A stretch of 64,000 nt of DNA from Patescibacteria group bacterium (GTDB taxonomy: Bacteria > Patescibacteriota > WWE3 > UBA101185 > UBA10185), in assembly GCA_049322215.1 (NCBI GenBank), contig JBMORU010000001.1, positions 969,759-1,033,758 of the forward strand. The letters are read 5' to 3'. How positions within the stretch are numbered: position 1 is the stretch's first letter; the number at the start of each line of letters is the position of its first letter. Both the position numbers and the translations under genes were made by a program. The notes beneath the pieces were generated by a model. That model saw only the letters and a program-made list of their open reading frames with translations. It had not been told where the DNA came from and did no database searches. This document shows, piece by piece, positions 2,760 to 56,768 of the stretch.

Positions 2760-2772
2760 CCTATAGTATAAT
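2760..2772 (+). promoter_or_regulatory. CCTATAGTATAAT promoter element (-10 box fused to the CCTATAGT motif)
   Basis: Exact 13-mer CCTATAGTATAAT lies 70 nt upstream of the ATG at 2843. The same 13-mer occurs at 10378, 11443 and 12606. A 9-bp stem (2792-2800 / 2815-2823) sits in the presumed 5' UTR. Confidence 0.6.
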
Positions 2773-2842
2773 ACAGGTATACCAGATCTATTGTTATTGG
2801 CTCAAACCTAATAACCAATAACACAAATATAAGGAGTAACAA

Positions 2843-3040
2843 ATGAAAATTACAAGCAAAAGCCAGTTAGATGAACAAATCGTTGCCGCCCAAAAAGCCG
2901 CAACACCAATGCCCAATTTCACAATTCCTACCAATCCAACGGAAGGACTTGTGGCGGCTACACTGCATACTCTTCAAGTTGAAGCCAAGAGACATGGGTG
3001 GCCTAATCCTAAGCTTCCAAAGATTTTGGGTCAAAAGTAA
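2843..3040 (+). CDS. hypothetical small protein (65 aa)
   Basis: ORF with RBS AAGGAG 8 nt upstream, its own promoter motif and its own terminator. Noticeably more G+C-rich than its neighbours. No signal peptide and no recognised family. Confidence 0.55.
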   Translation: MKITSKSQLDEQIVAAQKAATPMPNFTIPTNPTEGLVAATLHTLQVEAKRHGWPNPKLPKILGQK

Positions 3041-5921: not shown

Positions 5922-6560
5922 ATGAATATTAAAAAATTTGCTGGTCGGGTTTTGCTCATGCTTGCGGTATTGATCTTGATCGGTTGCCAACGACAAGAGC
6001 GGATTTCGATCCTGACCTTTGTTGCAACTTTCACCCCCACACCAACGGTTACGGCAACACCCCTTCCGACTGCAACGCCAACCTTGATCCCGATAGCTAA
6101 TGCTACGGAAGAACCCGAAGCAGTGGCGATTGCAACAACCCCAACAGCAGGCGAACAGGCTTTCATTGACGCCGTTAATGGGTTTGCAAACTCTGAGGTA
6201 GGCGAATGGGTCTTAAGCGACGTTGAAAACCCTCAAGAAGTTACTGGTGACGCTATTATAGGCATTGCCCGAAACATTTTGGCAGCGGTCTACGCCCAAT
6301 TGCAGGAGCAAGGAGCTTTGCCGGAAGACATGCCTACCCTGGAAGATGCATTAGAAGTTTTAAGCACGCCAGAGAAAGCGTTAGCCTTCGGTAGCTGCTT
6401 TAATCCCGCAATCGAATCCTACGAGGAAAATCAAAATGCAGCTGCGCTCGCGGAACAGCTTGCCTACTGCATCGAAAACGTAGACGAATACGAAGGAAAT
6501 CTCGATTTGCGTCGGGCAGTGACAGATTTCATTATCAATCAAATCACAACGGAGGAATAA
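5922..6560 (+). CDS. putative lipoprotein (212 aa) with Thr/Pro-rich linker
   Basis: Signal peptide with lipobox LILIGC. TPTPTVTATPLPTATPTL linker. G+C-rich relative to flanks. No recognised family. Confidence 0.65.
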   Translation: MNIKKFAGRVLLMLAVLILIGCQRQERISILTFVATFTPTPTVTATPLPTATPTLIPIANATEEPEAVAIATTPTAGEQAFIDAVNGFANSEVGEWVLSDVENPQEVTGDAIIGIARNILAAVYAQLQEQGALPEDMPTLEDALEVLSTPEKALAFGSCFNPAIESYEENQNAAALAEQLAYCIENVDEYEGNLDLRRAVTDFIINQITTEE

Positions 6561-8291: not shown

Positions 8292-10309
8292 TGAATTTAA
8301 AGTCTTCAGTAAACTTAGTACCTAAAATAGGGCCTAAATATCAAAAGCTTTTAAATAAACTAGAAATATACAAAGTAGAGGATTTGCTTTACCACTTTCC
8401 TTTTAGATACGAGGATTACTCAAAAGTAAGCAAAGTTTCAGAATTAATACCTAATGCTGATGTAACTATAAAAGCGCAAATAGTTAGTGCTCAAAATATT
8501 TTTACTAAAAACCGAAAAAGAATAACAAAAGCAATCGCACTAGACGAAACAGGTGAGTTAGAACTTATTTGGTTTAACCAACATTACATAAAAAAGGCTC
8601 TATTAATAGGTGAAGAATATTACATAAGTGGAAAAGTAGGAACTTTTAGCTATAAACCCGCAATTATAAGTCCACAACTAGAACTTGTAGAAAAGGGGAA
8701 AACACTTAATACAGGAAGAATTGTACCTGTTTACCCTGAAACAAAAGGGCTTACTTCGAAGTGGATTAGAGATAAAATAGATTTTTTGCTAAATAAAATA
8801 ATAAGCATTGAAGAAATATTGCCAAAAGAGTTACTTGAAGAAAATAATTTCCCAACAATAAAAGCAGCACTAAGAAATATGCATTTTCCGAAAATATTAA
8901 GAGATGCTGAAGAAGCAAAAAAAAGATTCGCCTTTGAGGAGTTACTAACAGAACTTTTGAGAGTAGAGCATAGAAAGCATATTTGGCACCAAAAAATGGA
9001 AGGAGTGCCACTTAAAGTAGATGAGTATAAAAAAGAAATCGAAACTTTTGAAAATAGTTTGCCGTTTGAATTAACTTCATCACAAAAAAACGCGGTAAGA
9101 GAAATATTTGAAGAAATGCAAGGTCAGCACCCTATGAATAGATTACTTGAAGGGGATGTTGGCACTGGAAAAACGGTTGTTGCTGTAGCAGCGGCATACC
9201 TAGCGTACTTAAATGGCTTTAAAACGCTTTATATGGCTCCCACAGAAATTTTAGCGCAACAACACTACAAAAACTTTATTCAATATTTAGAACCTTTTAA
9301 AGTAAAAATAGAACTTAAGACCGGGAGTAAAAAAACTAATTTAAATAATACAGAGTTTGATATAGCCATTGGAACCCATGCCTTATTATTTACAGAAGAC
9401 GCATTAGAAAAAGTGGGGCTTGTAGTTATAGATGAACAACACCGATTTGGAGTAAAGCAACGCGCAAAACTAGCTTCGTTAAGTAACGAAACAAAGGCAC
9501 CAAATATTTTAACAATGACTGCAACACCTATTCCTAGAACGTTAGCTTTGACTCTTTATGGAGATTTGTCTATTTCAACACTAGATGTTCCGCCAAATAA
9601 AGACAAAAAAATAACCACAAAGGTGGTGCCTGATTCTAAAAGACTTTCTGCATACAAATGGATTAAAAGCAAAGGTGAACCTACATTTATTGTTTGCCCT
9701 TTAATTGAAGAATCTGAGCATGAAATGCTAGAAAATGTTAAAGCCGCTGAAGCTGAATACGAAAAGCTTTCTAAAGGTATTTTTAAAGATATATCGGTGG
9801 GGTTACTACATGGGCGAATGAAACCTGCAGAGAAAAAAGAAATTGTAGATAAATTCAGAGCAGGGGAATATAAAGTGCTAATTTCTACTCCCGTAATTGA
9901 GGTAGGAATAGATATTCCTGATGCAACAATAATAGTAATAGAAAGTGCAGAGCGTTATGGACTTGCCTCGCTGCACCAATTAAGAGGGCGTGTTGGTAGA
10001 GGAAAAAAAGAGGGATTCTGTTTGCTTTTTCAATCTAACTATTCAAAAAAGGCTTATGCACGCTTAAAAAACTTGGAAAAAATTAATTCAGGCTTAAAAC
10101 TTGCAGAAATAGACATGAAGTACCGAGGGCAAGGTGACGTATTTGGCACTATGCAAAGCGGAATTAAAAGTTTTAAAGTGGCAGATATTGGCAATTTAAA
10201 AATGATCGAAGATACTAAAAAAGCTGCACAAAAATATTATCCAAAGTTGCATAATTACCCACTATTAGAACAAAAAATAAAAGTGTCAGATGAAGTTATA
10301 AATAATTGA
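8291..10309 (+). CDS. recG: ATP-dependent DNA helicase RecG
   Basis: Walker A GDVGTGKT, DEQH box VIDEQHRFG, TATPIPRT and QLRGRVGRG. N-terminal wedge/OB region. Confidence 0.9.
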   Translation: MNLKSSVNLVPKIGPKYQKLLNKLEIYKVEDLLYHFPFRYEDYSKVSKVSELIPNADVTIKAQIVSAQNIFTKNRKRITKAIALDETGELELIWFNQHYIKKALLIGEEYYISGKVGTFSYKPAIISPQLELVEKGKTLNTGRIVPVYPETKGLTSKWIRDKIDFLLNKIISIEEILPKELLEENNFPTIKAALRNMHFPKILRDAEEAKKRFAFEELLTELLRVEHRKHIWHQKMEGVPLKVDEYKKEIETFENSLPFELTSSQKNAVREIFEEMQGQHPMNRLLEGDVGTGKTVVAVAAAYLAYLNGFKTLYMAPTEILAQQHYKNFIQYLEPFKVKIELKTGSKKTNLNNTEFDIAIGTHALLFTEDALEKVGLVVIDEQHRFGVKQRAKLASLSNETKAPNILTMTATPIPRTLALTLYGDLSISTLDVPPNKDKKITTKVVPDSKRLSAYKWIKSKGEPTFIVCPLIEESEHEMLENVKAAEAEYEKLSKGIFKDISVGLLHGRMKPAEKKEIVDKFRAGEYKVLISTPVIEVGIDIPDATIIVIESAERYGLASLHQLRGRVGRGKKEGFCLLFQSNYSKKAYARLKNLEKINSGLKLAEIDMKYRGQGDVFGTMQSGIKSFKVADIGNLKMIEDTKKAAQKYYPKLHNYPLLEQKIKVSDEVINN

Positions 10310-10377: not shown

Positions 10378-10390
10378 CCTATAGTATAAT
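10378..10390 (+). promoter_or_regulatory. CCTATAGTATAAT promoter element
   Basis: Exact 13-mer, 44 nt upstream of the ATG at 10434. Confidence 0.6.
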
Positions 10391-10433
10391 TAGGCAACTA
10401 TCTGATAAACCAATACAAAAGGAGTACCTTACT

Positions 10434-11366
10434 ATGTACTTTAACAAAAAAATCACGACTTTGCTTTTATGGCTGCTTTTGATTATTTTGATGGCAGCAT
10501 GTGGAAGTGCGGACGATGCGGCAAGTGCTTTGCGCACGGCTGCGGATGCGGTAGAAAGCGTAGGTGAGGCCTCAGAAGATGTTAATGAACTAATTAATAA
10601 TCTTCAACAACCACCTCAAGCAAATAACACTGCACAAACAACCACAACAGACACTACAGGAACAACCGAACAACCCCAAAGTACGCCTGCAACACAAACA
10701 TGTAGTGGACAGGTTCAGTTCAACAACACAACCAGCATGGAGCTCTATGAGCATTACCCTGAGCTTGTCAACATGCAACCTACTCAGGCCAACACACTAA
10801 GCACATCATTTGGGCAGCTGGTATTTTACAACTACACCAACGTCCAAATCGACATGCAGGCCATTTCCAGTGCAGTCGAAAAACTGTACAGCATGGTAGG
10901 TAAGCAGGCTTTTCGGCTAAATACTGGAGGTACACCATACTGCCTTGTTGCAAAATCGTTCCCTAGTAGAACGTTGGTTATTGTTCCTCGCGAAATCGGC
11001 CGTTCGGAACTGACACCTGCGCAAAGCCACACCAACGCGGGCACATTTTTGGCAAGCAACGGCGCGTTTTCTTTCGTGTACTTTGAAAGGGGTTTCGAAG
11101 AAAGAGCCGATCAGGCAGTAAACATGGCAGCCATATTCACAGAGCTATGCAACGTACACCTGGGCATTGTAAGTCCATATTACGATGCAGAGGGTCCAGA
11201 CTGGTTCTGCAATGATTACATTGTGGGAAGCACGTTTAAAATTTTTGGCTTAGAAAGCGACACCAACGGTATTGCAACCAGGGCTAAAAACAACGGTGCT
11301 GACAATTTCTTCTATGTAGTCGATTTTAATGACTATATGGACACGGCACTGTTTAACATCGACTAA
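10434..11366 (+). CDS. paralogous lipoprotein 1 (310 aa), unknown family
   Basis: Signal peptide with Cys (LMAAC). Thr/Gln-rich linker. Conserved blocks shared with the next two genes: YEHYPEL, LVIVPREIGRSEL, ELCN, DWFCNDY. RBS AAGGAG. Confidence 0.75.
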   Translation: MYFNKKITTLLLWLLLIILMAACGSADDAASALRTAADAVESVGEASEDVNELINNLQQPPQANNTAQTTTTDTTGTTEQPQSTPATQTCSGQVQFNNTTSMELYEHYPELVNMQPTQANTLSTSFGQLVFYNYTNVQIDMQAISSAVEKLYSMVGKQAFRLNTGGTPYCLVAKSFPSRTLVIVPREIGRSELTPAQSHTNAGTFLASNGAFSFVYFERGFEERADQAVNMAAIFTELCNVHLGIVSPYYDAEGPDWFCNDYIVGSTFKIFGLESDTNGIATRAKNNGADNFFYVVDFNDYMDTALFNID

Positions 11367-11374
11367 TCTATTAC

Positions 11375-11421
11375 GGGATCTAAAGTTTGTTAAAAAAAAC
11401 AAACCTTAGGTCCCTTTTTTT
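11375..11421 (+). terminator. rho-independent terminator
   Basis: GGGATCTAAAGTTTGTT pairs with AACAAACCTTAGGTCCC (two G-U pairs), followed by a T-run. Confidence 0.75.
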
Positions 11422-11442
11422 GTAGGTTTGCTTTATACCAAG

Positions 11443-11455
11443 CCTATAGTATAAT
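11443..11455 (+). promoter_or_regulatory. CCTATAGTATAAT promoter element
   Basis: Exact 13-mer, 57 nt upstream of the ATG at 11512. Confidence 0.6.
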
Positions 11456-11511
11456 AGGTTAACGCATTTTTATAACTAAATAACACCGCTCAAACAAGGA
11501 GTTAGGTACAA

Positions 11512-12522
11512 ATGAAAAAAGCAATTGCTTTAGCTTCGCTAATGTTTTTATGGCTGTTAACAGCATGTGCAACAGGGGATGCAAGTTCGTCAAAAAGTGC
11601 AACTGACACTATTTTGGATGAAATTGCGGCAAACATCGTGGAAAGTGATTCTAAGCCTTCAACTGGCCAATTTCCACCACCTCCGCAGGCACCACCTTTA
11701 AATACAAACGCAAGTGGGGATTCAAACAGGGCTGCTTTGACATTGCCAACCACATCTGTGACAAATGCCGTGCCAAATACTACTGAGGTTCCGGCATACG
11801 GTTTGAGGTACGTTTCGTTTGAGAGCATGGAATCTTCAAACGTAGATATGTACGCTCATTTTCCTGCGCTGCATAACTATACCCCGTGGCAAAACTTTAC
11901 AGTAACCTCGGGGGGAATTAGCGTTACATTCGTTAATTTCAACCAAAGCATTAACCTCAACCAAAATGTACTACAACACTTTTTGGATGGGTTAGCTACA
12001 GCATCACAAAGTTGGGTGAATGTTACCAGCGTTGACGGTACCACATACGACCTGCGCATTTCAAAGTCCCAGAGCATTACTGTTATGGTTGCTCCGTACG
12101 ACATAGGTACATCTGATCTTATGAGTGATGAACATACGCTTGGTAACTACCCCGAACAACGCATTCAGGGATACTCGTTAATAACTGGAAGTGGTATTCT
12201 TGGCGTGGTAAAAAGCGATGGTGGAAACGGAACAAATGACTTAATTTTAACTGAAGCATGCAACAGCTTCATTGATTTAAGTCCCAATGGCTTTTACGCA
12301 GAAGATATGGAAATCGCCATTTACAGCAACACCTCTATTGTTCCTGGGGACGCGTTTTGTAACATGTATGCACGCTCTAGCTCTTACACTTCTGGAGGAC
12401 ATGTTACAAATCACCAAGAGCTGTACAGCTTTATGAGCACGCTTACTGTTTTTGGTTACCAGTACATGTATTTGCCTGAGCAATTATTTGGCGGGTACAT
12501 AACACAGTATGTAACAAACTAA
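11512..12522 (+). CDS. paralogous lipoprotein 2 (336 aa), unknown family
   Basis: Lipobox LLTAC. Pro-rich linker (QFPPPPQAPP). Conserved blocks YAHFPAL, VMVAPYDIGTSDL, EACN, DAFCNMY. Confidence 0.75.
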   Translation: MKKAIALASLMFLWLLTACATGDASSSKSATDTILDEIAANIVESDSKPSTGQFPPPPQAPPLNTNASGDSNRAALTLPTTSVTNAVPNTTEVPAYGLRYVSFESMESSNVDMYAHFPALHNYTPWQNFTVTSGGISVTFVNFNQSINLNQNVLQHFLDGLATASQSWVNVTSVDGTTYDLRISKSQSITVMVAPYDIGTSDLMSDEHTLGNYPEQRIQGYSLITGSGILGVVKSDGGNGTNDLILTEACNSFIDLSPNGFYAEDMEIAIYSNTSIVPGDAFCNMYARSSSYTSGGHVTNHQELYSFMSTLTVFGYQYMYLPEQLFGGYITQYVTN

Positions 12523-12528
12523 TATACA

Positions 12529-12574
12529 GGTTCAACTTTTAGGAAAAATCCCTACAAGTTGAACCTTTTTTTTA
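12529..12574 (+). terminator. rho-independent terminator
   Basis: GGTTCAACTT (12529-12538) pairs with AAGTTGAACC (12556-12565), followed by a T-run of 9. Confidence 0.8.
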
Positions 12575-12605
12575 CTTAAAAGAAAAACCTTTTCACGTGC
12601 AAGAG

Positions 12606-12618
12606 CCTATAGTATAAT
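12606..12618 (+). promoter_or_regulatory. CCTATAGTATAAT promoter element
   Basis: Exact 13-mer, 45 nt upstream of the ATG at 12663. Confidence 0.6.
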
Positions 12619-12662
12619 ATGGAAATTGCTTACCCAATAAACTAACTAGAAGGAGATTTAAA

Positions 12663-13493
12663 ATGAAAGGTAAAGCAACTCTGTATGTAGTAATACTGCT
12701 TCTCGTGGTAGCGTTGTTAAGCGGATGTACCAATGAAGAGGCTGTTTCGACTTTGACAACTGTAATTGAGGATGCAACAGGCAGTACTCAAGTAGAAAAC
12801 ACAAATCCAGACCAAGGCGGCACTATAAATGTTAGTGGCACGGCCAACCTGGATATTTATGCACACTATCCACAGTTGGCTAATGTGACTCCATTAGAGG
12901 ATTTCACGCTTACATCACCTGCAAGCTACGGTTATTCCGTACGCATTGTGAATTACAGCCATTTATCTGTAAACTCCGCTGCGGCCGGTCAATACCTTGA
13001 CTTGTTGCACTGGTTTGCGTGGAACAAAGTCACAGCTTTGGATATGAAAAATGTTGACCATTATATTTACATAAAGAATGTGCCAACTACCCAGCATGTT
13101 TTAGTAATTGTGCCCCAAGAAGTAGGTGCTTCGGTACTTATGCCAGAAGGAAACAATGTTAGAGGGGGCACACAAACTGGCACAAACGGTACGTTTGCAT
13201 TTTCTATGTTTAACGCGCAAACGCTTGATGTAAGCGAAAAAGGCAAAAATGAACTGAGGTTACTAGTTGAATTATGCAACTCATTCATTGGTGCCGGCAA
13301 TAATGGTTACAACTCTGGAGAAAGCGATGCTTTTTGCAATTCATATGCTACTGCTACGGTGCTAAAAGCGTTTGGTCTCAAACAAAATCTACAAGAAGTA
13401 ATTGACGCCTCTAAAGATGGCCAGTGGGGAAGTTATACCTTTATGTATATCAACTCCTGGGACGCATATATAGGCGCGCAAGTAACTAACTAA
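12663..13493 (+). CDS. paralogous lipoprotein 3 (276 aa), unknown family
   Basis: Lipobox LLSGC. Conserved blocks YAHYPQL, LVIVPQEVGASVL, ELCN, DAFCNSY. Ends QVTN, like paralog 2 (YVTN). Confidence 0.75.
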   Translation: MKGKATLYVVILLLVVALLSGCTNEEAVSTLTTVIEDATGSTQVENTNPDQGGTINVSGTANLDIYAHYPQLANVTPLEDFTLTSPASYGYSVRIVNYSHLSVNSAAAGQYLDLLHWFAWNKVTALDMKNVDHYIYIKNVPTTQHVLVIVPQEVGASVLMPEGNNVRGGTQTGTNGTFAFSMFNAQTLDVSEKGKNELRLLVELCNSFIGAGNNGYNSGESDAFCNSYATATVLKAFGLKQNLQEVIDASKDGQWGSYTFMYINSWDAYIGAQVTN

Positions 13494-13502
13494 TAACTAA
13501 AG

Positions 13503-13555
13503 GCCAAAAGAGTAAATCCACTCATAATGGAAATTCATTCTTTTGGCTTTTTTTT
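13503..13555 (+). terminator. rho-independent terminator
   Basis: GCCAAAAGA (13503-13511) pairs with TCTTTTGGC (13539-13547), followed by a T-run. Confidence 0.7.
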
Positions 13556-14225: not shown

Positions 14226-14912
14226 TTAGGCACCATAAGATGCAGTAGTACCCAAAGGATCAAGCTGACCGTAAATATTTTGCATTTCCTGAAGGGCAGC
14301 ACGGGCGCGTGTAATACGATGGTTACCGGCAGAAGGTTTAACATCAGGAAGTGCTAAGTGGGCGTGTGTGTCCACATGCTCTATCATCTGCGTTGTAACC
14401 AACATCAAGACCCTAATCTGGAAAATGGCACACTCTGTTGATACAGTTATTTGTTGTGCACCAAAGCCTTTCCCAATCGATGCATTTAAACCCCGGGCTA
14501 TTCCCAAAATGTACTCAGCAGCCTCATCCATTAGGGGTTGATGCGTTCGAGTAAGCACTGGACCTAAATCAACGACAGTGTTAAGGGCTAGACCCAACAC
14601 GTTGATACGCTGCTCAGATTCCGTTTTTGACAAATTATGCCCGGTGGTAGGAAAAACAGACAAAACTGTGTCTACCAGCGCTATAACAGCCCATTCAAAC
14701 GCTTCAAGCACTCTTTGAGCATCTGGGTTATTTTTAGCTGCATACTCACGCATTCTGTTTCGAGCAATTTTAATTTTTTTGTAGAATTTCATTCCCTTTG
14801 CATCTTCTGGGGGTTCGTCATCTACAGAAAAAGTTAAAAGCCAAAACAGAGTTGAGAGCGCAGTTAAATTAAATGCACCCCGCAACAAATTACCTATTGT
14901 AAGCCTCTTCAT
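14226..14912 (-). CDS. hypothetical protein (228 aa) with N-terminal hydrophobic anchor
   Basis: Long ORF, G+C-rich relative to flanks, with its own promoter motif and terminator. N-terminus LTALSTLFWLLTFSV. No recognised family. Confidence 0.6.
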   Translation of the reverse strand: MKRLTIGNLLRGAFNLTALSTLFWLLTFSVDDEPPEDAKGMKFYKKIKIARNRMREYAAKNNPDAQRVLEAFEWAVIALVDTVLSVFPTTGHNLSKTESEQRINVLGLALNTVVDLGPVLTRTHQPLMDEAAEYILGIARGLNASIGKGFGAQQITVSTECAIFQIRVLMLVTTQMIEHVDTHAHLALPDVKPSAGNHRITRARAALQEMQNIYGQLDPLGTTASYGA

Positions 14913-15024: not shown

Positions 15025-15678
15025 TTAGCTATAACGTTCTTCAAGCCAAGGGTCACCATGGTTGTTATAACCGCGAACTTCCCAAAAGCCAGGTTCATCA
15101 TGCTTTAAAAAGGTAATTTTGTTTAAAAATTTTGCAGACTTCCAGCCATATAAATGGGGGACTAACATGCGAACAGGGCCACCATGCAATGTAGGTATAG
15201 TTTCACCTTCTAGCTCGTAAGCAACTAAAACATCTTCTTTTAAACATTCTTCTATAGGTAAGTTGGTAGTGTAATCATCTCTACTGCTAAAAACTACAAA
15301 CCTGGCGCTAGGCTTAGGTTTTACTAATTTTGCAATTTCCAAAAAGCTTACACCTTTCCAGGTTAAATCGTAACGTGACCACCTAGTAACACAATGAAAA
15401 TCTTTTGTAACTTCTACCGAAGGAAGCGCTAAAAGTGAGGCTTGCTTTAAAATTACAGGATTTTCCACCTCACCATCTATCGTCAAAGTAAAATCTTGAA
15501 AGTCTAAATGAGGACGAACCCCTAGATCAAGTACAGGAAAACCATCTGTAAGGTACTGGCCAGGAGGTAACCTGTTTGTACTACGCTTTTTTTGACCTAT
15601 TAATCCAAACTTTTCAGCTGCTTTTTTAATTTTTGCCGAAATTAAAAACTCATTGTATGCATCGTTAGGTAAGTTCAT
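15025..15678 (-). CDS. molybdopterin-dependent oxidoreductase, sulfite-oxidase/MsrP-like catalytic domain (217 aa)
   Basis: Block FHCVTRWS..WKGV plus GGPVRMLVPHLYGWKSAKFL resembles the Moco-binding domain of the sulfite oxidase/YedY family (recognised from memory). Confidence 0.65.
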   Translation of the reverse strand: MNLPNDAYNEFLISAKIKKAAEKFGLIGQKKRSTNRLPPGQYLTDGFPVLDLGVRPHLDFQDFTLTIDGEVENPVILKQASLLALPSVEVTKDFHCVTRWSRYDLTWKGVSFLEIAKLVKPKPSARFVVFSSRDDYTTNLPIEECLKEDVLVAYELEGETIPTLHGGPVRMLVPHLYGWKSAKFLNKITFLKHDEPGFWEVRGYNNHGDPWLEERYS

Positions 15679-17195: not shown

Positions 17196-17411
17196 ATGAG
17201 TTTCAGTCATTTGATGCTGCAAGAAAATACTGTTAAACACTTTAAGGGGCAATTGGGTAACGAGGCAGTTGGGTTGAAGTTTAAAATGATTAAAAAAAAT
17301 GGTAGACCCGCCAACCTCGTTTTCACCGTAACCGAGGTGAAAAATTTTGGTTTTTGGACTGACAAAAGTATGCTCATTGCCGACGACATTTTGATTCAGA
17401 TAGTGGGCTAA
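17196..17411 (+). CDS. hypothetical small protein (71 aa)
   Basis: RBS GGAGGA 6 nt before the ATG, with a terminator immediately downstream. A weak CTATAGTATTTT element lies at 17110-17121. Preferred over the overlapping minus-strand ORF. Confidence 0.45.
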   Translation: MSFSHLMLQENTVKHFKGQLGNEAVGLKFKMIKKNGRPANLVFTVTEVKNFGFWTDKSMLIADDILIQIVG

Positions 17412-46845: not shown

Positions 46846-47970
46846 TTACTTTCTTCTTTTCAAGGCATAACCACTAGTTATAGAGGTTAATCCCAGTAAG
46901 GTTAGTACTAATGTTGAAGCCGCACCTGTTTCAGGTAGTTCCTCAATGCCTAGTACATCTTCGGTGTCAGAATAACAAACGGTAGCCGTGTCAGAACCTT
47001 CTTCGGTTCCGTCATAAATCACTGTAGCCTCATTAACTACACACTTGTCAAAGTCAGATCTATCGTACTCATCAGGATCAACTCTTACTCTGATGATGAA
47101 AGTTCTTTCTTCACCAGGTTTAAAAGCATCCCAATCTTCAGTTAAGTCACCAGAAAGCTTAATTAGCTCATCTGGCAATATATCGTGCATTCTCATGTTA
47201 TCGAATGCAACACCATCAACATCGTTAGCGTCAGTTTTGTTTTTTACAACAACCCTAAACTCTACGACATCATCAAATTCAACATCAGTTACTTTATCTT
47301 TCCATTTTTTGTCACCCTCTATACGAACCTTTTTCTCTATATCAAATGACTTGTTAATGATACAGTTTTCACCACCTCCGTAGCCTCCACCGTAACCACC
47401 GTAGATACTACATGGGGTTTCTTCTGGATCATCTTCAGGTTCTGGCTCAGGTTCGTTAGCAGGACAGCTTATTTCATGATGTTGCGCAATACTGTCAGCA
47501 GCATAAAGCTTTAACTCTCCAGCTTTGGGCAAGGTGAATGAAGATTCAACCACCATACCTTGAGGGGACTCGTAAACAACTTCTCCATTAAGGTAAAACT
47601 TGTTTACACGTTCATCAACATCGTCGTCAATAAACACATAGCTGAATTCACATCCAGCAGGTAACTCCCCGAAATTCACCCATTCATGGAAGATTTTTGT
47701 GTAGGCTTCGGAGCTAGTCCAAACTCGTTCCTTACGTGTAGAAGTGTAAGTATCACTATCTACAGTATCAAAACGAAACGGATTAGTTCTTTTAACTACA
47801 AATACTTCATTAGAATCCTTTGTATAACTTGCACTACCTTCGCCCAAATACTGAGTTTCTGGTAAAGCAAAAGCCTCATTAAGAGGCATTATCCCAAGGG
47901 CTAAGATTGTCATAGCAACAACCTTAAGTGATTTATCAGAGAGCCTTGAAATGAATTTTATTAAGTTCAT
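46846..47970 (-). CDS. LPXTG-anchored surface protein 2
   Basis: Signal peptide. Pro/Glu linker PEPEPEDDPEE and a GYGGGYGGG run. C-terminal domain paralogous to protein 1. Sorting signal LPETG + hydrophobic stretch + KRRK. Confidence 0.8.
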   Translation of the reverse strand: MNLIKFISRLSDKSLKVVAMTILALGIMPLNEAFALPETQYLGEGSASYTKDSNEVFVVKRTNPFRFDTVDSDTYTSTRKERVWTSSEAYTKIFHEWVNFGELPAGCEFSYVFIDDDVDERVNKFYLNGEVVYESPQGMVVESSFTLPKAGELKLYAADSIAQHHEISCPANEPEPEPEDDPEETPCSIYGGYGGGYGGGENCIINKSFDIEKKVRIEGDKKWKDKVTDVEFDDVVEFRVVVKNKTDANDVDGVAFDNMRMHDILPDELIKLSGDLTEDWDAFKPGEERTFIIRVRVDPDEYDRSDFDKCVVNEATVIYDGTEEGSDTATVCYSDTEDVLGIEELPETGAASTLVLTLLGLTSITSGYALKRRK

Positions 47971-48792: not shown

Positions 48793-49245
48793 TTACAAAG
48801 GGGCACTAACGTGCAGTAGCAACATGCCCATTTCACCAATTGGCCACCAAGCCTCATCATGGCATACACGCCCTTTACCGCTGTCTTTTTCAGGGTTAAG
48901 CACCGTGTGTAAAAACTTTTCTTCATCTGCCATAGAGGTGGGCAATGTCAAAATAAGATCAACATTTGGACTGCTGCGCTGAGTGTGCTTCCACGAAAGC
49001 CAGTGCAAATTCGCTCTGCTTCTGGTAAACGCCAGGTCAGCAAGCCTACTTAAAAATCCAACCCTAATAGCTAATCTGCGCAAAAGCACAGGTAGGGGAC
49101 GTCGATCAACAACGGTTACACTAAGAAAACCTGCATCCTCAACGTAAAAATCATAAACAACTTGTCCAGGAATAGCCTTTTGTATACGCAGAAACGGCAA
49201 AAGACTCTTGTCTACCTTTAAACCCTCATATACTTTATTTCGCAT
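48793..49245 (-). CDS. hypothetical protein (150 aa)
   Basis: ORF, G+C-rich relative to flanks. RBS AAGGAGAG. Its own terminator and an upstream CCTATAGT motif. No recognised family. Confidence 0.55.
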   Translation of the reverse strand: MRNKVYEGLKVDKSLLPFLRIQKAIPGQVVYDFYVEDAGFLSVTVVDRRPLPVLLRRLAIRVGFLSRLADLAFTRSRANLHWLSWKHTQRSSPNVDLILTLPTSMADEEKFLHTVLNPEKDSGKGRVCHDEAWWPIGEMGMLLLHVSAPL

Positions 49246-55372: not shown

Positions 55373-56359
55373 TTAAATTAAACTATTAATTTCGTCAGCA
55401 GTATCATCAACATCTTTATGAAACTTTGTGTGAATGTCTTTTAGCTGTTTATTTGTAACATGCGTATATATTTGGGTAGTAGACACATTAGAATGACCTA
55501 ATAGCTCTTGTACAGAACGTAAATCAGCACCCTCAGACAAAAGTCCGGTAGCAAATGTATGACGCAAAGTGTGTGGAGTAGCATCAATAGACAATCCGGC
55601 TCTAGTAACGTATTTTTTTATCATACGTTGCACACTTCTAGGCGTTAATCTTAAAGATTCGCCATCTTCATCACCAACTTCCATACGCTTGCCAGAATAA
55701 CGTAAGAATAAAGGTACGAAATTATCTCTACGCGTAGATAAGTAACGCTTTAACCAATCTTTAGCGCTAGGACTTAAATAAACTGTACGAACTTTTCGAC
55801 CTTTACCTACAACGGTAAATTCTCCTGAATTTAAATTTATGTCAGATACATCTAAATTTACTAATTCGCTTACACGTAACCCAGTGCTAAATAGGGTTTC
55901 AAGCATAGCTCTATCACGAATACCTGATTTCTTACTTAAATTTTGTGTTGAAAACAAGCCCTGCAATTGTTCTTCATTTAAAACTTTAGGAACACGTGCC
56001 TCTGGTTTACCTAAAATTATTTGTTCGGGGGATACTGTGTCTAAACCTAACTCCACCACAATGTATTTCAAAAAGGCACGAATTGCGACAAGAAATGTTT
56101 TTTGTGTAGATTTCTTGAATTCTTCATGCGATTTATTACTTATACGTCGGTTTAAATTTAAACGATACTTTCTAAGTAGTTCTTGATCAATATCGGATAC
56201 GTAAAAATCATCCTTCTTTAAATATGCCTTAGACCACTCAATAAAGTCATTTAAATAAAAATCGTACATACGAATTGTATTTTGAGAAAGGTTTTTTTCA
56301 ATTTCACAATGTTCTAAATAACGCGTAAGTAATTCTTTTAGAGATTTGGTCATAAACAT
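55373..56359 (-). CDS. tyrosine site-specific recombinase (XerC/XerD-like)
   Basis: N-terminal SAM-like domain. Catalytic R (TGLRVSEL), HTLRHTFAT (HxxR), and LLGHSNVSTTQIYTHV (H...Y). Confidence 0.85.
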   Translation of the reverse strand: MFMTKSLKELLTRYLEHCEIEKNLSQNTIRMYDFYLNDFIEWSKAYLKKDDFYVSDIDQELLRKYRLNLNRRISNKSHEEFKKSTQKTFLVAIRAFLKYIVVELGLDTVSPEQIILGKPEARVPKVLNEEQLQGLFSTQNLSKKSGIRDRAMLETLFSTGLRVSELVNLDVSDINLNSGEFTVVGKGRKVRTVYLSPSAKDWLKRYLSTRRDNFVPLFLRYSGKRMEVGDEDGESLRLTPRSVQRMIKKYVTRAGLSIDATPHTLRHTFATGLLSEGADLRSVQELLGHSNVSTTQIYTHVTNKQLKDIHTKFHKDVDDTADEINSLI

Positions 56360-56768
56360 ATGTTAACAAGAGTTAGAAAATTTTCAAACATAGAACATAG
56401 ATTATGCAAGTTTAAGATTTTGTAGACCTAGCATTAAAATTTACTCATTACATGTGATGCATAAGTCAACTAAAAAATAAAAATTGCTTACAGGGCATTC
56501 TAGAGCCTCACACCCATTATTTACTGTCACAACAACAAATAGTAAGAATCAGCATGTTTAAAACTGCTAAAAATGTAATGAAATAAAAAAAGACAAGTGA
56601 GGTATATACGCAAGAAATGAAAATGCGGCATTAAACGTTGAATAGAGTAGCTGCGCCGCAAACTAAAAATAAATTAACATACAATTAAACAAAAATTTGT
56701 TTGGTATTAAAAAGTAAATTAATTTGGATCAAATTATAGGGAACAGGTTAGAATATTAAAAAATACAA

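What the first reader, a model, noticed from the sequence alone, without database searches (positions are those of the whole stretch)
10378..13555. Tandem array of three divergent paralogous lipoproteins, each an independent promoter-to-terminator cassette
Seen: three consecutive plus-strand genes (310, 336 and 276 aa) each have a lipoprotein-type signal peptide with Cys. Each then has a low-complexity linker (Thr/Gln-rich, Pro-rich, or short) and a ~200-aa domain with shared blocks. The shared blocks are Y(E/A)H(Y/F)P.L, (V/I)(I/M)V(A/V)P.(E/D)(I/V)G.S.L, E.CN..(I/L) and D.FCN.Y. This gives two invariant Cys, each in a CN context. Each gene is preceded by the identical 13-mer CCTATAGTATAAT and followed by its own hairpin + T-run terminator. 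The genes look clearly more G+C-rich than the flanking recG and rsmD (by eye, not computed). I do not recognise the family. Inference: this is a diversifying surface lipoprotein family (host interaction, nutrient capture or an immunity-like role). The conserved Cys pair suggests a disulfide or a catalytic/metal site.
Basis: partly seen in the sequence, partly recalled or inferred. Interest (0 to 1): 0.62.

Follow-up and report, generated by a model that had tools for sequence, protein, structure and literature searches.

The report
Three orphan zincin-like lipoprotein genes
Three neighbouring genes in a tiny uncultured (WWE3-like Patescibacteria) bacterium encode membrane-anchored surface proteins of a very rare, unnamed family whose predicted fold resembles a zinc protease that has lost its zinc-binding histidines; the feature is real, but its function is still only a prediction.

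Summary
Three plus-strand genes (310, 336 and 276 aa; 24-28% identical by BLASTP) each have a lipobox signal peptide and a linker. Each also has a ~215-aa domain with the quoted motifs, the exact 13-mer CCTATAGTATAAT at the -10 position, and its own hairpin/T-run terminator. GC3 is 0.38-0.46, against 0.21-0.30 for most other window genes.

The family is nearly an orphan. An exhaustive HMMER scan of 1.84 billion representatives found only these three plus a few distant ~280-aa relatives (hhalign probability 98.4%). Libraries and phage, plasmid and metagenome scans found nothing.

recG and rsmD abut in WWE3-like relatives and usually in Bacillota, so the array is a 3.3-kb lineage-specific insertion. 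A second strain differs at 3 of ~2,100 bases in it, so "diversifying" is unsupported.

Best reading: lipid-anchored, degenerate zincin-fold (pseudopeptidase-like) cell-envelope proteins. A non-canonical hydrolase is the main rival.

The parts
10378..10390 (+). Promoter element of lp1: the 13-mer CCTATAGTATAAT (-10 hexamer TATAAT at 10385-10390). A -35-like TTTTCC lies 17 bp upstream.
   Evidence: repeat D2: 42 nt shared with the lp3 promoter at 74% identity.
10434..11366 (+). lp1, 310 aa. Signal peptide with lipobox LMAAC (Cys23), a Thr/Gln-rich linker, and a zincin-like domain from about residue 100 (about 10731-11363). GGAG lies 9 nt before the ATG.
   Evidence: GC3 is 0.457. The NCBI model starts at Met20 (P0004, 291 aa) and so loses the signal peptide.
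11375..11421 (+). Intrinsic terminator of lp1: a 16-bp stem followed by T7.
   Evidence: -20.7 kcal/mol, z -5.70.
11443..11455 (+). Promoter 13-mer of lp2.
11512..12522 (+). lp2, 336 aa. Lipobox LLTAC (Cys19), a Pro-rich linker, and a zincin-like domain (about 11845-12519) with a 13-residue insertion between the two Cys helices.
   Evidence: GC3 is 0.398.
12528..12574 (+). Intrinsic terminator of lp2.
   Evidence: -19.5 kcal/mol, z -5.55, followed by T8.
12606..12618 (+). Promoter 13-mer of lp3. A -35-like TTTTCA lies 17 bp upstream.
12663..13493 (+). lp3, 276 aa. Lipobox LLSGC (Cys22), a short linker, and a zincin-like domain at residues ~60-276 (12840-13490). Key residues: Glu203 (13269-13271), Cys205, Asn206, Asp222, Cys225, Asn226.
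13499..13555 (+). Intrinsic terminator of lp3.
   Evidence: -19.6 kcal/mol, z -5.26, followed by a T run.
2760..3040 (+). Fourth exact copy of the 13-mer (2760-2772). It drives an unrelated 65-aa orphan ORF (2843-3040) that has its own SD sequence and terminator. This shows the 13-mer is a promoter type of this genome and not a by-product of the tandem duplication.
   Evidence: terminator -24.9 kcal/mol. GC3 is 0.364.

Best explanation
The three genes encode lipid-anchored cell-envelope proteins of a monoderm WWE3-like Patescibacterium.

Proposed architecture. Each mature protein is tethered to the outer face of the membrane through the lipobox Cys. It is held away from the membrane by a low-complexity linker and ends in a ~215-aa domain. 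I propose that this domain is a degenerate zincin (gluzincin-like metallopeptidase) fold.

Proposed site. In the helix that would carry HExxH, both His are gone. The motif is [T/V/I]-E-x-C-[N/Q/H]. The next helix carries [D/E]-x-x-C-N, at roughly the spacing at which gluzincins place their third zinc ligand. By helix geometry the two invariant Cys lie on the helix faces that would face the former metal site.

Proposed function. I infer that the two Cys staple the two helices together as a disulfide that replaces the zinc. I infer that the protein is a non-proteolytic, or at most weakly active, groove-binding module for peptide or cell-envelope ligands in the wall zone. That makes it a pseudopeptidase rather than a classical protease.

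Origin and expression. The three copies are old paralogues. They arrived as a block of foreign-like composition between recG and rsmD. Each is transcribed separately from a sigma-70-type promoter whose extended -10 region is the shared 13-mer.

Shown: gene structure, paralogy, lipobox, promoter and terminator elements, rarity of the family, the insertion, composition, and motif conservation.
Predicted: the fold.
Inferred: the mapping of motifs to the zincin site, the disulfide, and the non-catalytic binding role.
For: - Gene anatomy and signals.
- Family-wide conservation. Glu, the two Cys, the Asn after the second Cys, one further Asn and one Pro are invariant in 11 sequences. By my reading of alignments A3 and A5, an acidic residue lies three residues before the second Cys in all 11.
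- Distant relatives are true homologues: hhalign probability 98.4%, E 8e-15 over 190 columns.
- The domain is always extracytoplasmic and membrane-tethered. By the coded rule, 5 of the 10 sequences with an intact N-terminus (3 of this window, P0011, P0017) are lipoproteins; P0008 and P0015 have a near-lipobox Cys; P0010, P0012 and P0014 have a hydrophobic N-terminal anchor by eye.
- AF2 with the 11-sequence alignment gives pLDDT 70.1 and pTM 0.73, with the domain blocks mostly 70-93.
- Foldseek against PDB and BFVD independently puts M1, M61, M34, SprT and IrrE proteins on top, though only at E of 0.006 or weaker.
- Pseudopeptidases that keep the Glu but lose both His are documented: FtsHi1 TEVGV and FtsHi2 NEAAM (PMC11266112, Table 2).
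- LPXTG proteins in the window indicate a Gram-positive-type wall.
- Insertion. recG and rsmD abut or overlap in nearly all WWE3-like relatives and lie within about 170 bp in most Bacillota loci. No family member occurs in any of those loci.
- Foreign-like composition. Both G- and C-ending codons are raised (CTG 0.14 vs 0.02; ATA 0.19 vs 0.45), while rpsP has the normal GC3 of 0.25.
Against: - The fold rests on one AlphaFold model from only 11 sequences. An earlier model from 3 sequences failed (pLDDT 39).
- No Foldseek hit reaches E 1e-3.
- No sequence profile links the family to any peptidase family.
- I could not see coordinates or residue-level superpositions. Placing E-x-C-N on the HExxH helix and judging the Cys-Cys proximity are therefore inferences from helix order, spacing and helical periodicity.
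- A strictly invariant Glu together with an invariant acidic residue and an invariant Asn looks more like a live active site than a dead one. That favours the catalytic rival.
- Nothing tells us whether this organism can form disulfides outside the cell.
- There is no direct evidence for any ligand.
Confidence: 0.4

Rival explanations
1. The domain is an active, non-canonical hydrolase. It would keep the zincin general-base Glu and the helix-2 acidic ligand. It would use the two Cys, with or without the Asn/Gln/His at the second His position, either to bind a catalytic metal or as a thiol nucleophile. My own recollection is that peptide deformylase uses a Cys plus HExxH in this way. The enzyme would trim peptides or cell-wall or host-surface substrates at the membrane surface.
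For: - Glu, both Cys and the following Asn are invariant in all 11 sequences. An acidic residue lies three residues before the second Cys in all 11, despite only 16-20% overall identity.
- Two members carry His at the second His position (TEICH, TEACH).
- By helical periodicity, Cys at position i+3 lies on the same face as the lost His ligands (inference).
- The fold matches are all to hydrolase catalytic domains.
Against: - No member has the first His.
- The second position is Asn or Gln in 9 of 11 sequences.
- No characterised zincin-fold peptidase that I know of uses a Cys2/carboxylate site.
- There is no sequence match to any peptidase family.
- No substrate clue exists in the window's neighbourhood.
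Confidence: 0.25
2. One reading: a diversifying, variable surface lipoprotein family used for host or episymbiont interaction or for immune or phage evasion, evolving by duplication and rapid divergence.
For: - Surface-exposed lipoproteins in a tandem array with low-complexity linkers.
- Lineage-specific presence at a junction that is also variable in one relative: L020 carries an M32 carboxypeptidase there.
- Foreign-like composition.
- CPR bacteria are commonly episymbionts (general knowledge).
Against: - Between two strains the array has 3 differences in about 2,100 bp, while the adjacent recG has 41 in 1,111 bp.
- There are no tandem repeats, homopolymer switches or invertible elements.
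- There are only three copies. No silent cassettes appear in the window, and no further relative from this genome appears in the 15-billion-protein collection.
- Divergence among the copies is ancient (24-28% by BLASTP), with a strictly conserved core.
Confidence: 0.12
3. The family is functionally tied to outer-face glycosylation. It would be either an accessory factor of GT-C glycosyltransferases or itself a glycoprotein substrate, through the Thr/Pro-rich linkers and a conserved N-x-S/T sequon.
For: Context of the distant homologues:
- In one lineage they sit directly after, or one gene after, an AftD-like GT-C membrane glycosyltransferase and next to GT2, GT1 or FkbM methyltransferase genes (L003-L005).
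- In a second lineage the homologue sits in a cluster with PMT, MptA_B, GT1, GT2 and methyltransferase genes (L007).

Sequence: the invariant Asn lies in N-[YF]-[TS] in 10 of 11 sequences, and lp2 has an adjacent N-Q-S.
Against: - The window array has no glycosylation genes nearby.
- L006, L008 and L009 have other neighbours.
- The AftD-like family has more than 1,000 members, while this family has about 11. The link is therefore not general.
- N-glycosylation is not established in this group.
- The sequon may simply be structural.
Confidence: 0.1
4. The zincin resemblance is an artefact of a shallow-alignment model. On this view the domain is a novel fold of unknown function, with a structural disulfide.
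For: - The alignment has only 11 sequences.
- Foldseek E-values are 0.006 or weaker.
- No sequence-level link to zincins exists.
Against: - The top hits are homogeneous in three independent searches.
- Most secondary-structure elements recur in the two independent models: the first five strands and four of the helices.
- The conserved motifs fall on the two consecutive helices that form the zincin site, and the helix-1 Glu to helix-2 acidic residue spacing of 19 is close to the M1 spacing (inference; M1 spacing quoted).
Confidence: 0.13

Closest known systems
Gluzincin metallopeptidase catalytic domains (clan MA: M1 aminopeptidases such as ERAP1 and APN, M61, M9 collagenases, M30)
   Same: - The layout is a beta-sheet followed by two consecutive helices.
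- A conserved Glu sits on the first helix and a conserved acidic residue about 19 residues later on the second. This compares with HExxH-x18-E in M1 (quoted).
   Different: - There is no HExxH. The first His is T, V or I in all sequences. The second is N, Q or, rarely, H.
- An invariant Cys sits on each helix.
- There is no sequence-profile match to any clan MA family.
- It is a stand-alone ~215-aa domain on a lipoprotein anchor.
Pseudopeptidases (inactive metallopeptidase homologues, e.g. chloroplast FtsHi1 TEVGV and FtsHi2 NEAAM)
   Same: - The peptidase fold appears to be kept.
- The zinc-binding His residues are replaced while the Glu is kept (PMC11266112 Table 2).
- A binding or scaffolding role rather than proteolysis is the proposed function.
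   Different: - It is unrelated in sequence.
- It is bacterial, extracytoplasmic and lipid-anchored.
- The conserved Cys pair and the invariant Asn have no counterpart there.
- Inactivity is not shown here.
Tandem paralogous or variable surface lipoprotein arrays of wall-less or host-associated bacteria (e.g. Mycoplasma Vlp/Vsp and Borrelia lipoprotein families; from my own knowledge)
   Same: - Several lipoprotein genes lie side by side.
- Each has its own promoter.
- The upstream element is conserved while the mature parts are divergent.
   Different: - There are no repeat-based or homopolymer switches.
- The globular core is conserved.
- There is almost no strain-to-strain variation.
- There are only three copies.
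Peptide deformylase (from my own knowledge: a zincin-related fold whose metal is held by a Cys in an EGCLS motif plus the two His of HExxH)
   Same: It is a precedent for a Cys thiolate taking part in the catalytic metal site of a zincin-like fold, which is relevant to the catalytic rival.
   Different: - Deformylase keeps HExxH.
- It is cytoplasmic.
- It did not appear among the listed structural hits.
- No similarity to it was tested here beyond that.

Membership tests
Bacterial lipoproteins (Lgt/LspA substrates) | N-terminal signal peptide with a basic n-region and a hydrophobic h-region | tested here: met
   All three start with K/R in the first 7 residues, followed by 12-16 hydrophobic residues. 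Weak NCBIfam and PHROG hits are to lipoprotein or spanin signal regions only.
Bacterial lipoproteins (Lgt/LspA substrates) | Lipobox [LVI][ASTVI][GAS]-C with the Cys at position 15-35 | tested here: met
   A PS51257-type rule, written from memory, passes: lp1 LMAAC (Cys23), lp2 LLTAC (Cys19), lp3 LLSGC (Cys22).
Bacterial lipoproteins (Lgt/LspA substrates) | The genome encodes Lgt and signal peptidase II; the protein is acylated | not testable with these tools
   Only 64 kb of the 1.11-Mb genome is available, and the genome is not in the genome collection. A crude motif search of the window found neither gene, which is uninformative.
Zincin / gluzincin metallopeptidases (clan MA) | Thermolysin-like alpha/beta catalytic fold | tested here: inconclusive
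   [not shown]
Zincin / gluzincin metallopeptidases (clan MA) | HExxH zinc-binding and catalytic motif | tested here: not met
   No HExxH occurs in any of the 11 members. The conserved helix motif is [TVI]-E-x-C-[NQH].
Zincin / gluzincin metallopeptidases (clan MA) | Third metal ligand (Glu) on the following helix | tested here: inconclusive
   Asp (this window) or Glu (distant members) lies three residues before the second Cys in 11 of 11 sequences, 19 residues after the conserved Glu in lp3. Equivalence to the gluzincin ligand was not verified by superposition.
Zincin / gluzincin metallopeptidases (clan MA) | Sequence-profile match to a curated peptidase family | tested here: not met
   Pfam, NCBIfam, PHROGs and PADLOC give nothing. 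PDB sequence profiles give nothing relevant.
Pseudopeptidases (inactive metallopeptidase homologues) | Peptidase fold kept, with catalytic or metal ligands substituted | tested here: inconclusive
   The His ligands are absent in all members, but the fold is only predicted.
Pseudopeptidases (inactive metallopeptidase homologues) | Demonstrated lack of catalytic activity | not testable with these tools
   This needs biochemistry.
Phase- or antigen-variable surface lipoprotein families | Switching elements (homopolymer or SSR tracts, invertible promoters, silent cassettes) and repeat-rich mature regions | tested here: not met
   TRF finds only a 16-bp, 2-copy repeat. The only inverted repeats of note are the terminators. 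There are no extra copies.
Phase- or antigen-variable surface lipoprotein families | High strain-to-strain sequence variation | tested here: not met
   There are 3 substitutions in about 2,100 bp between two strains, against 41 in 1,111 bp of the adjacent recG. Only one pair of strains was compared.

The most novel reading that the evidence does not exclude
This would be a previously undescribed family, so far seen only in Patescibacteria-like contigs, derived from the zincin fold. In it the two zinc-binding histidines have been replaced, and an invariant Cys pair together with Glu, Asp/Glu and Asn forms a new kind of extracytoplasmic active centre: either a Cys2-carboxylate metal site or a redox-switchable thiol pair. 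It would act on cell-envelope or partner-cell substrates. In some lineages it would be coupled to outer-face GT-C glycosylation machinery. In this genome it would belong to a small set of foreign-composition 'cassette' genes that share a CCTATAG-type promoter element.
Probability: 0.2. Interest if true: 0.6.

Novelty: new variant of a known kind. Interest (0 to 1): 0.4.

Why it matters
Patescibacteria (CPR) have tiny genomes, and most of their envelope proteins have no known function. Here a compact, well-delimited three-gene array belongs to a family with only about a dozen detectable members among about 15 billion proteins. Even so, it has a strictly conserved Glu/Cys/Cys/Asn core on what is predicted to be a zinc-protease scaffold.

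If the fold and site assignments hold, there are two possible outcomes. One is a clean bacterial example of a metal site replaced by a disulfide, that is, a pseudopeptidase at the cell surface. The other is a new catalytic variant of the zincin fold.

The insertion into the otherwise fixed recG-rsmD junction is also informative. Together with the foreign-like codon usage and the promoter shared with other orphan cassettes, it gives a small, concrete case of how a reduced genome gains accessory surface genes. None of this overturns current views, and the function remains a prediction.

Tried and rejected
Family and sequence searches that found nothing useful:
- Pfam, NCBIfam, PHROGs and PADLOC gave no family for any of the three proteins or for any of the 11 members. 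The only weak hits were to signal peptides.
- PDB sequence profiles A2, A4 and A5 gave only chance hits to antibodies and ribosomal protein L20.

Tests for a phage, plasmid or mobile-element origin, all negative:
- tblastn of lp3 against phages and plasmids gave no match.
- IMG/VR pattern scan gave no relative.
- No flanking direct repeats were found.
- PHROG hits were confined to the signal region.

Wider family searches:
- JGI metagenome scans with the window subfamily (A2) and with a distant subfamily (A8) found none.
I used that scan for RecG synteny instead.
- P0007, P0009 and P0013 from the exhaustive search are probably spurious. P0007 and P0013 are repeat proteins by inspection, and P0009 (2,294 aa, four short stretches) was not inspected.

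Interpretations rejected:
- Codon bias from high expression. rpsP has normal GC3, and both G- and C-ending codons are raised.
- Solute-binding lipoprotein. There is no transporter nearby and the fold does not match.
- A T7-like promoter reading of CTATAG. No single-subunit RNA polymerase is evident, and the orientation and spacing fit a sigma-70 -10 element.

Technical dead ends:
- The first AF2 run, with 3 sequences, was unusable (pLDDT 39).
- The afdb50 fold library was unavailable.
- The Lgt/LspA search by motif in the window was uninformative.

Full report
**1. What is in the sequence**

Window 10378-13555 holds three plus-strand ORFs: lp1 10434-11366 (310 aa), lp2 11512-12522 (336 aa) and lp3 12663-13493 (276 aa). 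BLASTP shows they are paralogues: lp1-lp3 E 6e-27 (27% identity), lp2-lp3 E 5e-18 (28%), lp1-lp2 E 2e-08 (24%).

So are the two invariant Cys-Asn pairs.

A PROSITE PS51257-type lipobox rule, which I coded from memory, accepts all three: Cys23, Cys19 and Cys22. The NCBI gene model of lp1 starts at Met20 (291 aa) and removes the signal peptide. The longer start has a GGAG 9 nt upstream and is the better model.

**2. Expression signals**

CCTATAGTATAAT is exact at 10378, 11443 and 12606. It also occurs at 2760, and with one mismatch at 57114 on the minus strand. That is 5 hits against 0.11 expected, with 0 of 100 shuffles reaching 5.

The 13-mer ends in a perfect TATAAT. A TTnnC-type -35 lies 17 bp upstream, and the element sits 44-71 nt before each ATG. 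The DNA around it is otherwise dissimilar, although the lp1 and lp3 promoters share 42 nt at 74% identity. The 13-mer is therefore a conserved promoter element under selection and not a leftover of duplication.

The copy at 2760 drives an unrelated 65-aa ORF that has its own terminator.

Each lp gene is followed by a strong hairpin of -20.7, -19.5 or -19.6 kcal/mol (z -5.3 to -5.7) and then a T-rich tract. The generic scan missed these hairpins because of loop length. No terminator follows recG. 'Three independent promoter-to-terminator cassettes' is an accurate description at the sequence level. Transcription itself is inferred.

**3. Composition**

GC is 0.42-0.45, against 0.32-0.33 for recG and rsmD. 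GC3 is 0.457, 0.398 and 0.379, against 0.21-0.30 for most other window genes.

The shift raises both G- and C-ending codons: CTG 0.14 vs 0.02, CGG 0.12 vs 0.01, ATA 0.19 vs 0.45. The ribosomal protein gene rpsP has the ordinary GC3 of 0.25. This is a compositional, foreign-like signature and not translational selection. The distant homologues in other genomes do not stand out above their neighbours in GC3.

**4. Organism and insertion**

- The proteins are annotated in a 'Patescibacteria group bacterium' MAG with a 1.11-Mb contig.
- RecG's nearest relatives in one-genome-per-species GTDB are candidate division WWE3 and similarly labelled MAGs, at only 54-60% identity. The source genome itself is not in that collection.
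- In nearly all WWE3-like relatives rsmD abuts or overlaps the end of recG. In most Bacillota loci it follows within about 170 bp.
- Here 3.28 kb with the three lp genes lies between recG and rsmD.
- One relative, L020, has a different insert at the same junction: an M32 carboxypeptidase on the opposite strand.
- A family HMM run over all ORFs of the 52 fetched loci and the whole window found no further member.
- No direct repeats flank the insert.

**5. How rare the family is**

The word-indexed search of 5.8 billion clusters returned only the three proteins themselves.

An exhaustive HMMER profile search of 1.84 billion representatives, standing for about 15 billion proteins, returned the same three. 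It also returned five genuine distant relatives of 279-330 aa at E 1e-4 to 1e-3, and three hits that look spurious (two inspected, both repeat proteins). A second indexed search added three more relatives.

hhalign between the window trio and the distant group gives probability 98.4% and E 8e-15 over 190 columns.

Assuming the MAG's whole proteome is in that collection, as its three lp entries are, and given that paralogues under 50% identical would appear as separate representatives, the genome-wide copy number is most likely three.

Scans of IMG/VR, JGI metagenome contigs, phages and plasmids found nothing. No curated library has the family.

**6. Strain comparison**

A 3,642-bp contig from another sample (L001) covers the end of recG, lp1, lp2 and the start of lp3 at 98.8% identity. 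Of the 44 differences, 41 lie in recG (33 synonymous, 8 non-synonymous, mostly in three patches). Only 3 lie in about 2,100 bp of the lp genes. With one pair of strains this is weak evidence, but it points away from rapid diversification. There are no repeats or switch tracts.

**7. Conserved core and fold**

Across 11 sequences that share only 16-20% identity with lp3, the invariant residues are:
- one Asn, in N-[YF]-[TS];
- one Pro, in (I/V)VP;
- the Glu and Cys of [TVI]-E-x-C-[NQH];
- the Cys and Asn of [DE]-x-x-C-N.

By my reading of the alignments, the acidic residue three residues before the second Cys is present in all 11.

AlphaFold with the 3-sequence alignment failed (pLDDT 39). With 11 sequences it gave pLDDT 70.1 and pTM 0.73, and most 10-residue blocks of the domain scored between 70 and 93. 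Most secondary-structure elements recur in the two models, including the first five strands.

**8. Mapping the motifs (inference)**

The model has a sheet followed by helix 190-208, which ends in L-V-E203-L-C205-N206-S-F. Helix 218-236 follows and begins S-D222-A-F-C225-N226-S-Y.

This matches the zincin layout of an HExxH helix followed by the helix that carries the third ligand. In M1 that ligand is a Glu at HExxH-x18-E (motif as quoted). On this register:
- Glu203 takes the catalytic Glu position.
- Val, Thr or Ile replaces the first His.
- Asn, Gln or, in two members, His replaces the second His.
- Asp222 (Glu in the distant members) takes the third-ligand position.

Cys205 is at position i+3 from the missing first His, and Cys225 is at i+3 from Asp222. 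By helical periodicity both lie on the faces that would point at the former metal site.

I could not inspect coordinates or superpositions, so this register is unverified.

**9. Most likely function**

The domain is always outside the cell and membrane-tethered. The tether is a lipobox in lp1-3, P0011 and P0017, a near-lipobox Cys in P0008 and P0015, and a hydrophobic N-terminal anchor, judged by eye, in P0010, P0012 and P0014. The window also encodes LPXTG proteins and a type IV pilus cluster, which indicates a Gram-positive-type envelope.

My preferred reading, at 0.4, is a disulfide-stapled, degenerate zincin domain that acts as a non-proteolytic binding module for peptide or envelope ligands. 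This is analogous to pseudopeptidases that keep the Glu but lose the His residues, such as FtsHi1 TEVGV and FtsHi2 NEAAM (PMC11266112).

The main rival, at 0.25, is an active non-canonical hydrolase. The strict invariance of Glu, the acidic residue, Cys, Cys and Asn is the best argument for it.

A glycosylation link is rated 0.1. In two lineages the distant homologues lie in outer-face glycan clusters. One is next to an AftD-like GT-C transferase, GT1, GT2 and an FkbM methyltransferase. The other is among PMT, MptA_B, GT1 and GT2 genes. However, other homologues and the window array lack that context, and the GT-C family is about 100 times more common than this one.

**10. Comparison with what is known, and verdict**

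The closest known kinds are gluzincin catalytic domains (by fold) and pseudopeptidases (by concept). Membership in clan MA fails on its defining HExxH and on every sequence model, so I do not file the family there.

It is not a phase-variable lipoprotein system. It is best called a new, very rare, probably zincin-derived envelope-protein family, expanded to three copies in one WWE3-like genome by a block insertion. This is of moderate interest: a real and tidy feature with a testable structural hypothesis, but no demonstrated function and nothing that overturns current knowledge.

Noticed in passing
window 2843-3040 (+), 5922-6560 (+), 14226-14912 (-), 17196-17411 (+), 48793-49245 (-): Besides the lp array, five other ORFs have the same foreign-like GC3 (0.36-0.49, against 0.21-0.30 for most genes). 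They are a 65-aa ORF, a 212-aa lipobox protein, a 228-aa protein, a 71-aa ORF and a 150-aa ORF. Two that I checked (65-aa and 71-aa) have their own promoter-like site and terminator hairpin. None has a family hit. None has a counterpart at the conserved PheT-PBP1A-TyrS-RecG-RsmD-NusB-RNase III backbone of relatives. They look like a class of accessory 'cassettes' inserted at gene junctions.
   Followed up: partly
window 2760, 10378, 11443, 12606, 14978, 46758, 48003 (+); 49297, 57126, 63215 (-): The 8-mer CCTATAGT occurs 10 times against 1.99 expected, with 0 of 100 shuffles reaching 10. Nine of the ten copies are intergenic. Several lie upstream of the GC3-rich orphan genes: orf65, lp1-3, orf228 (opposite orientation) and orf150. 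It may be a regulator site or a promoter-class signature. I could not define the regulon without the whole genome.
   Followed up: partly
window 56360-57150: This is a ~790-bp AT-rich stretch with no ORF of 45 aa or more, lying upstream of a tyrosine recombinase gene (55373-56359). It begins, on the minus strand, with the one-mismatch copy of the 13-mer. It holds four copies of TGTCATA(C/G)TT within about 90 bp (57008-57097). Rfam finds nothing, even at E up to 1. It could be a non-coding RNA, an origin-like region or a recombination site.
   Followed up: partly
window 9199-10309 (recG) versus L001 1-1111: Between two strains, recG carries 41 substitutions, most of them in three patches (9205-9367, 9866-9916, 10039-10126). 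The adjoining lp genes are almost identical. This pattern suggests recombination patches or a mixed-population assembly within recG.
   Followed up: no
window 10434-10490 (lp1 start): The GenBank protein for lp1 (MFZ5425191.1, 291 aa) starts at Met20 and lacks the signal peptide and the residues before the lipobox Cys. The 310-aa start, with a Shine-Dalgarno sequence 9 nt upstream, is more plausible.
   Followed up: yes
L020 12031-13557 (-): In the most syntenic relative (CAZXUJ010000002.1) the same recG-rsmD junction holds a different inserted gene, an M32-type carboxypeptidase (HEVGH) on the opposite strand. This junction therefore seems to be a recurrent insertion point.
   Followed up: partly
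L003 2187-4907; L004 1-3186; L005 2-1003: The distant homologues of one lineage lie immediately after, or one gene after, a 900-1,060-aa polytopic membrane protein. That protein belongs to a large Patescibacteria family with more than 1,000 members, many of them from Levybacteria. Some members hit PF11847 (AftD-like GT-C arabinofuranosyltransferase), and GT1, GT2 and FkbM methyltransferase genes lie next to it.
   Followed up: partly
window 15025-15678 (-); 20533-41513 (-); 45427-47970 (-): Other features of the window: a small molybdopterin-oxidoreductase-domain protein (PF00174, MsrP/YedY-like); a long type IV pilus gene cluster with many GFTLIELL pilins; and two LPXTG wall-anchored proteins.
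   Followed up: no
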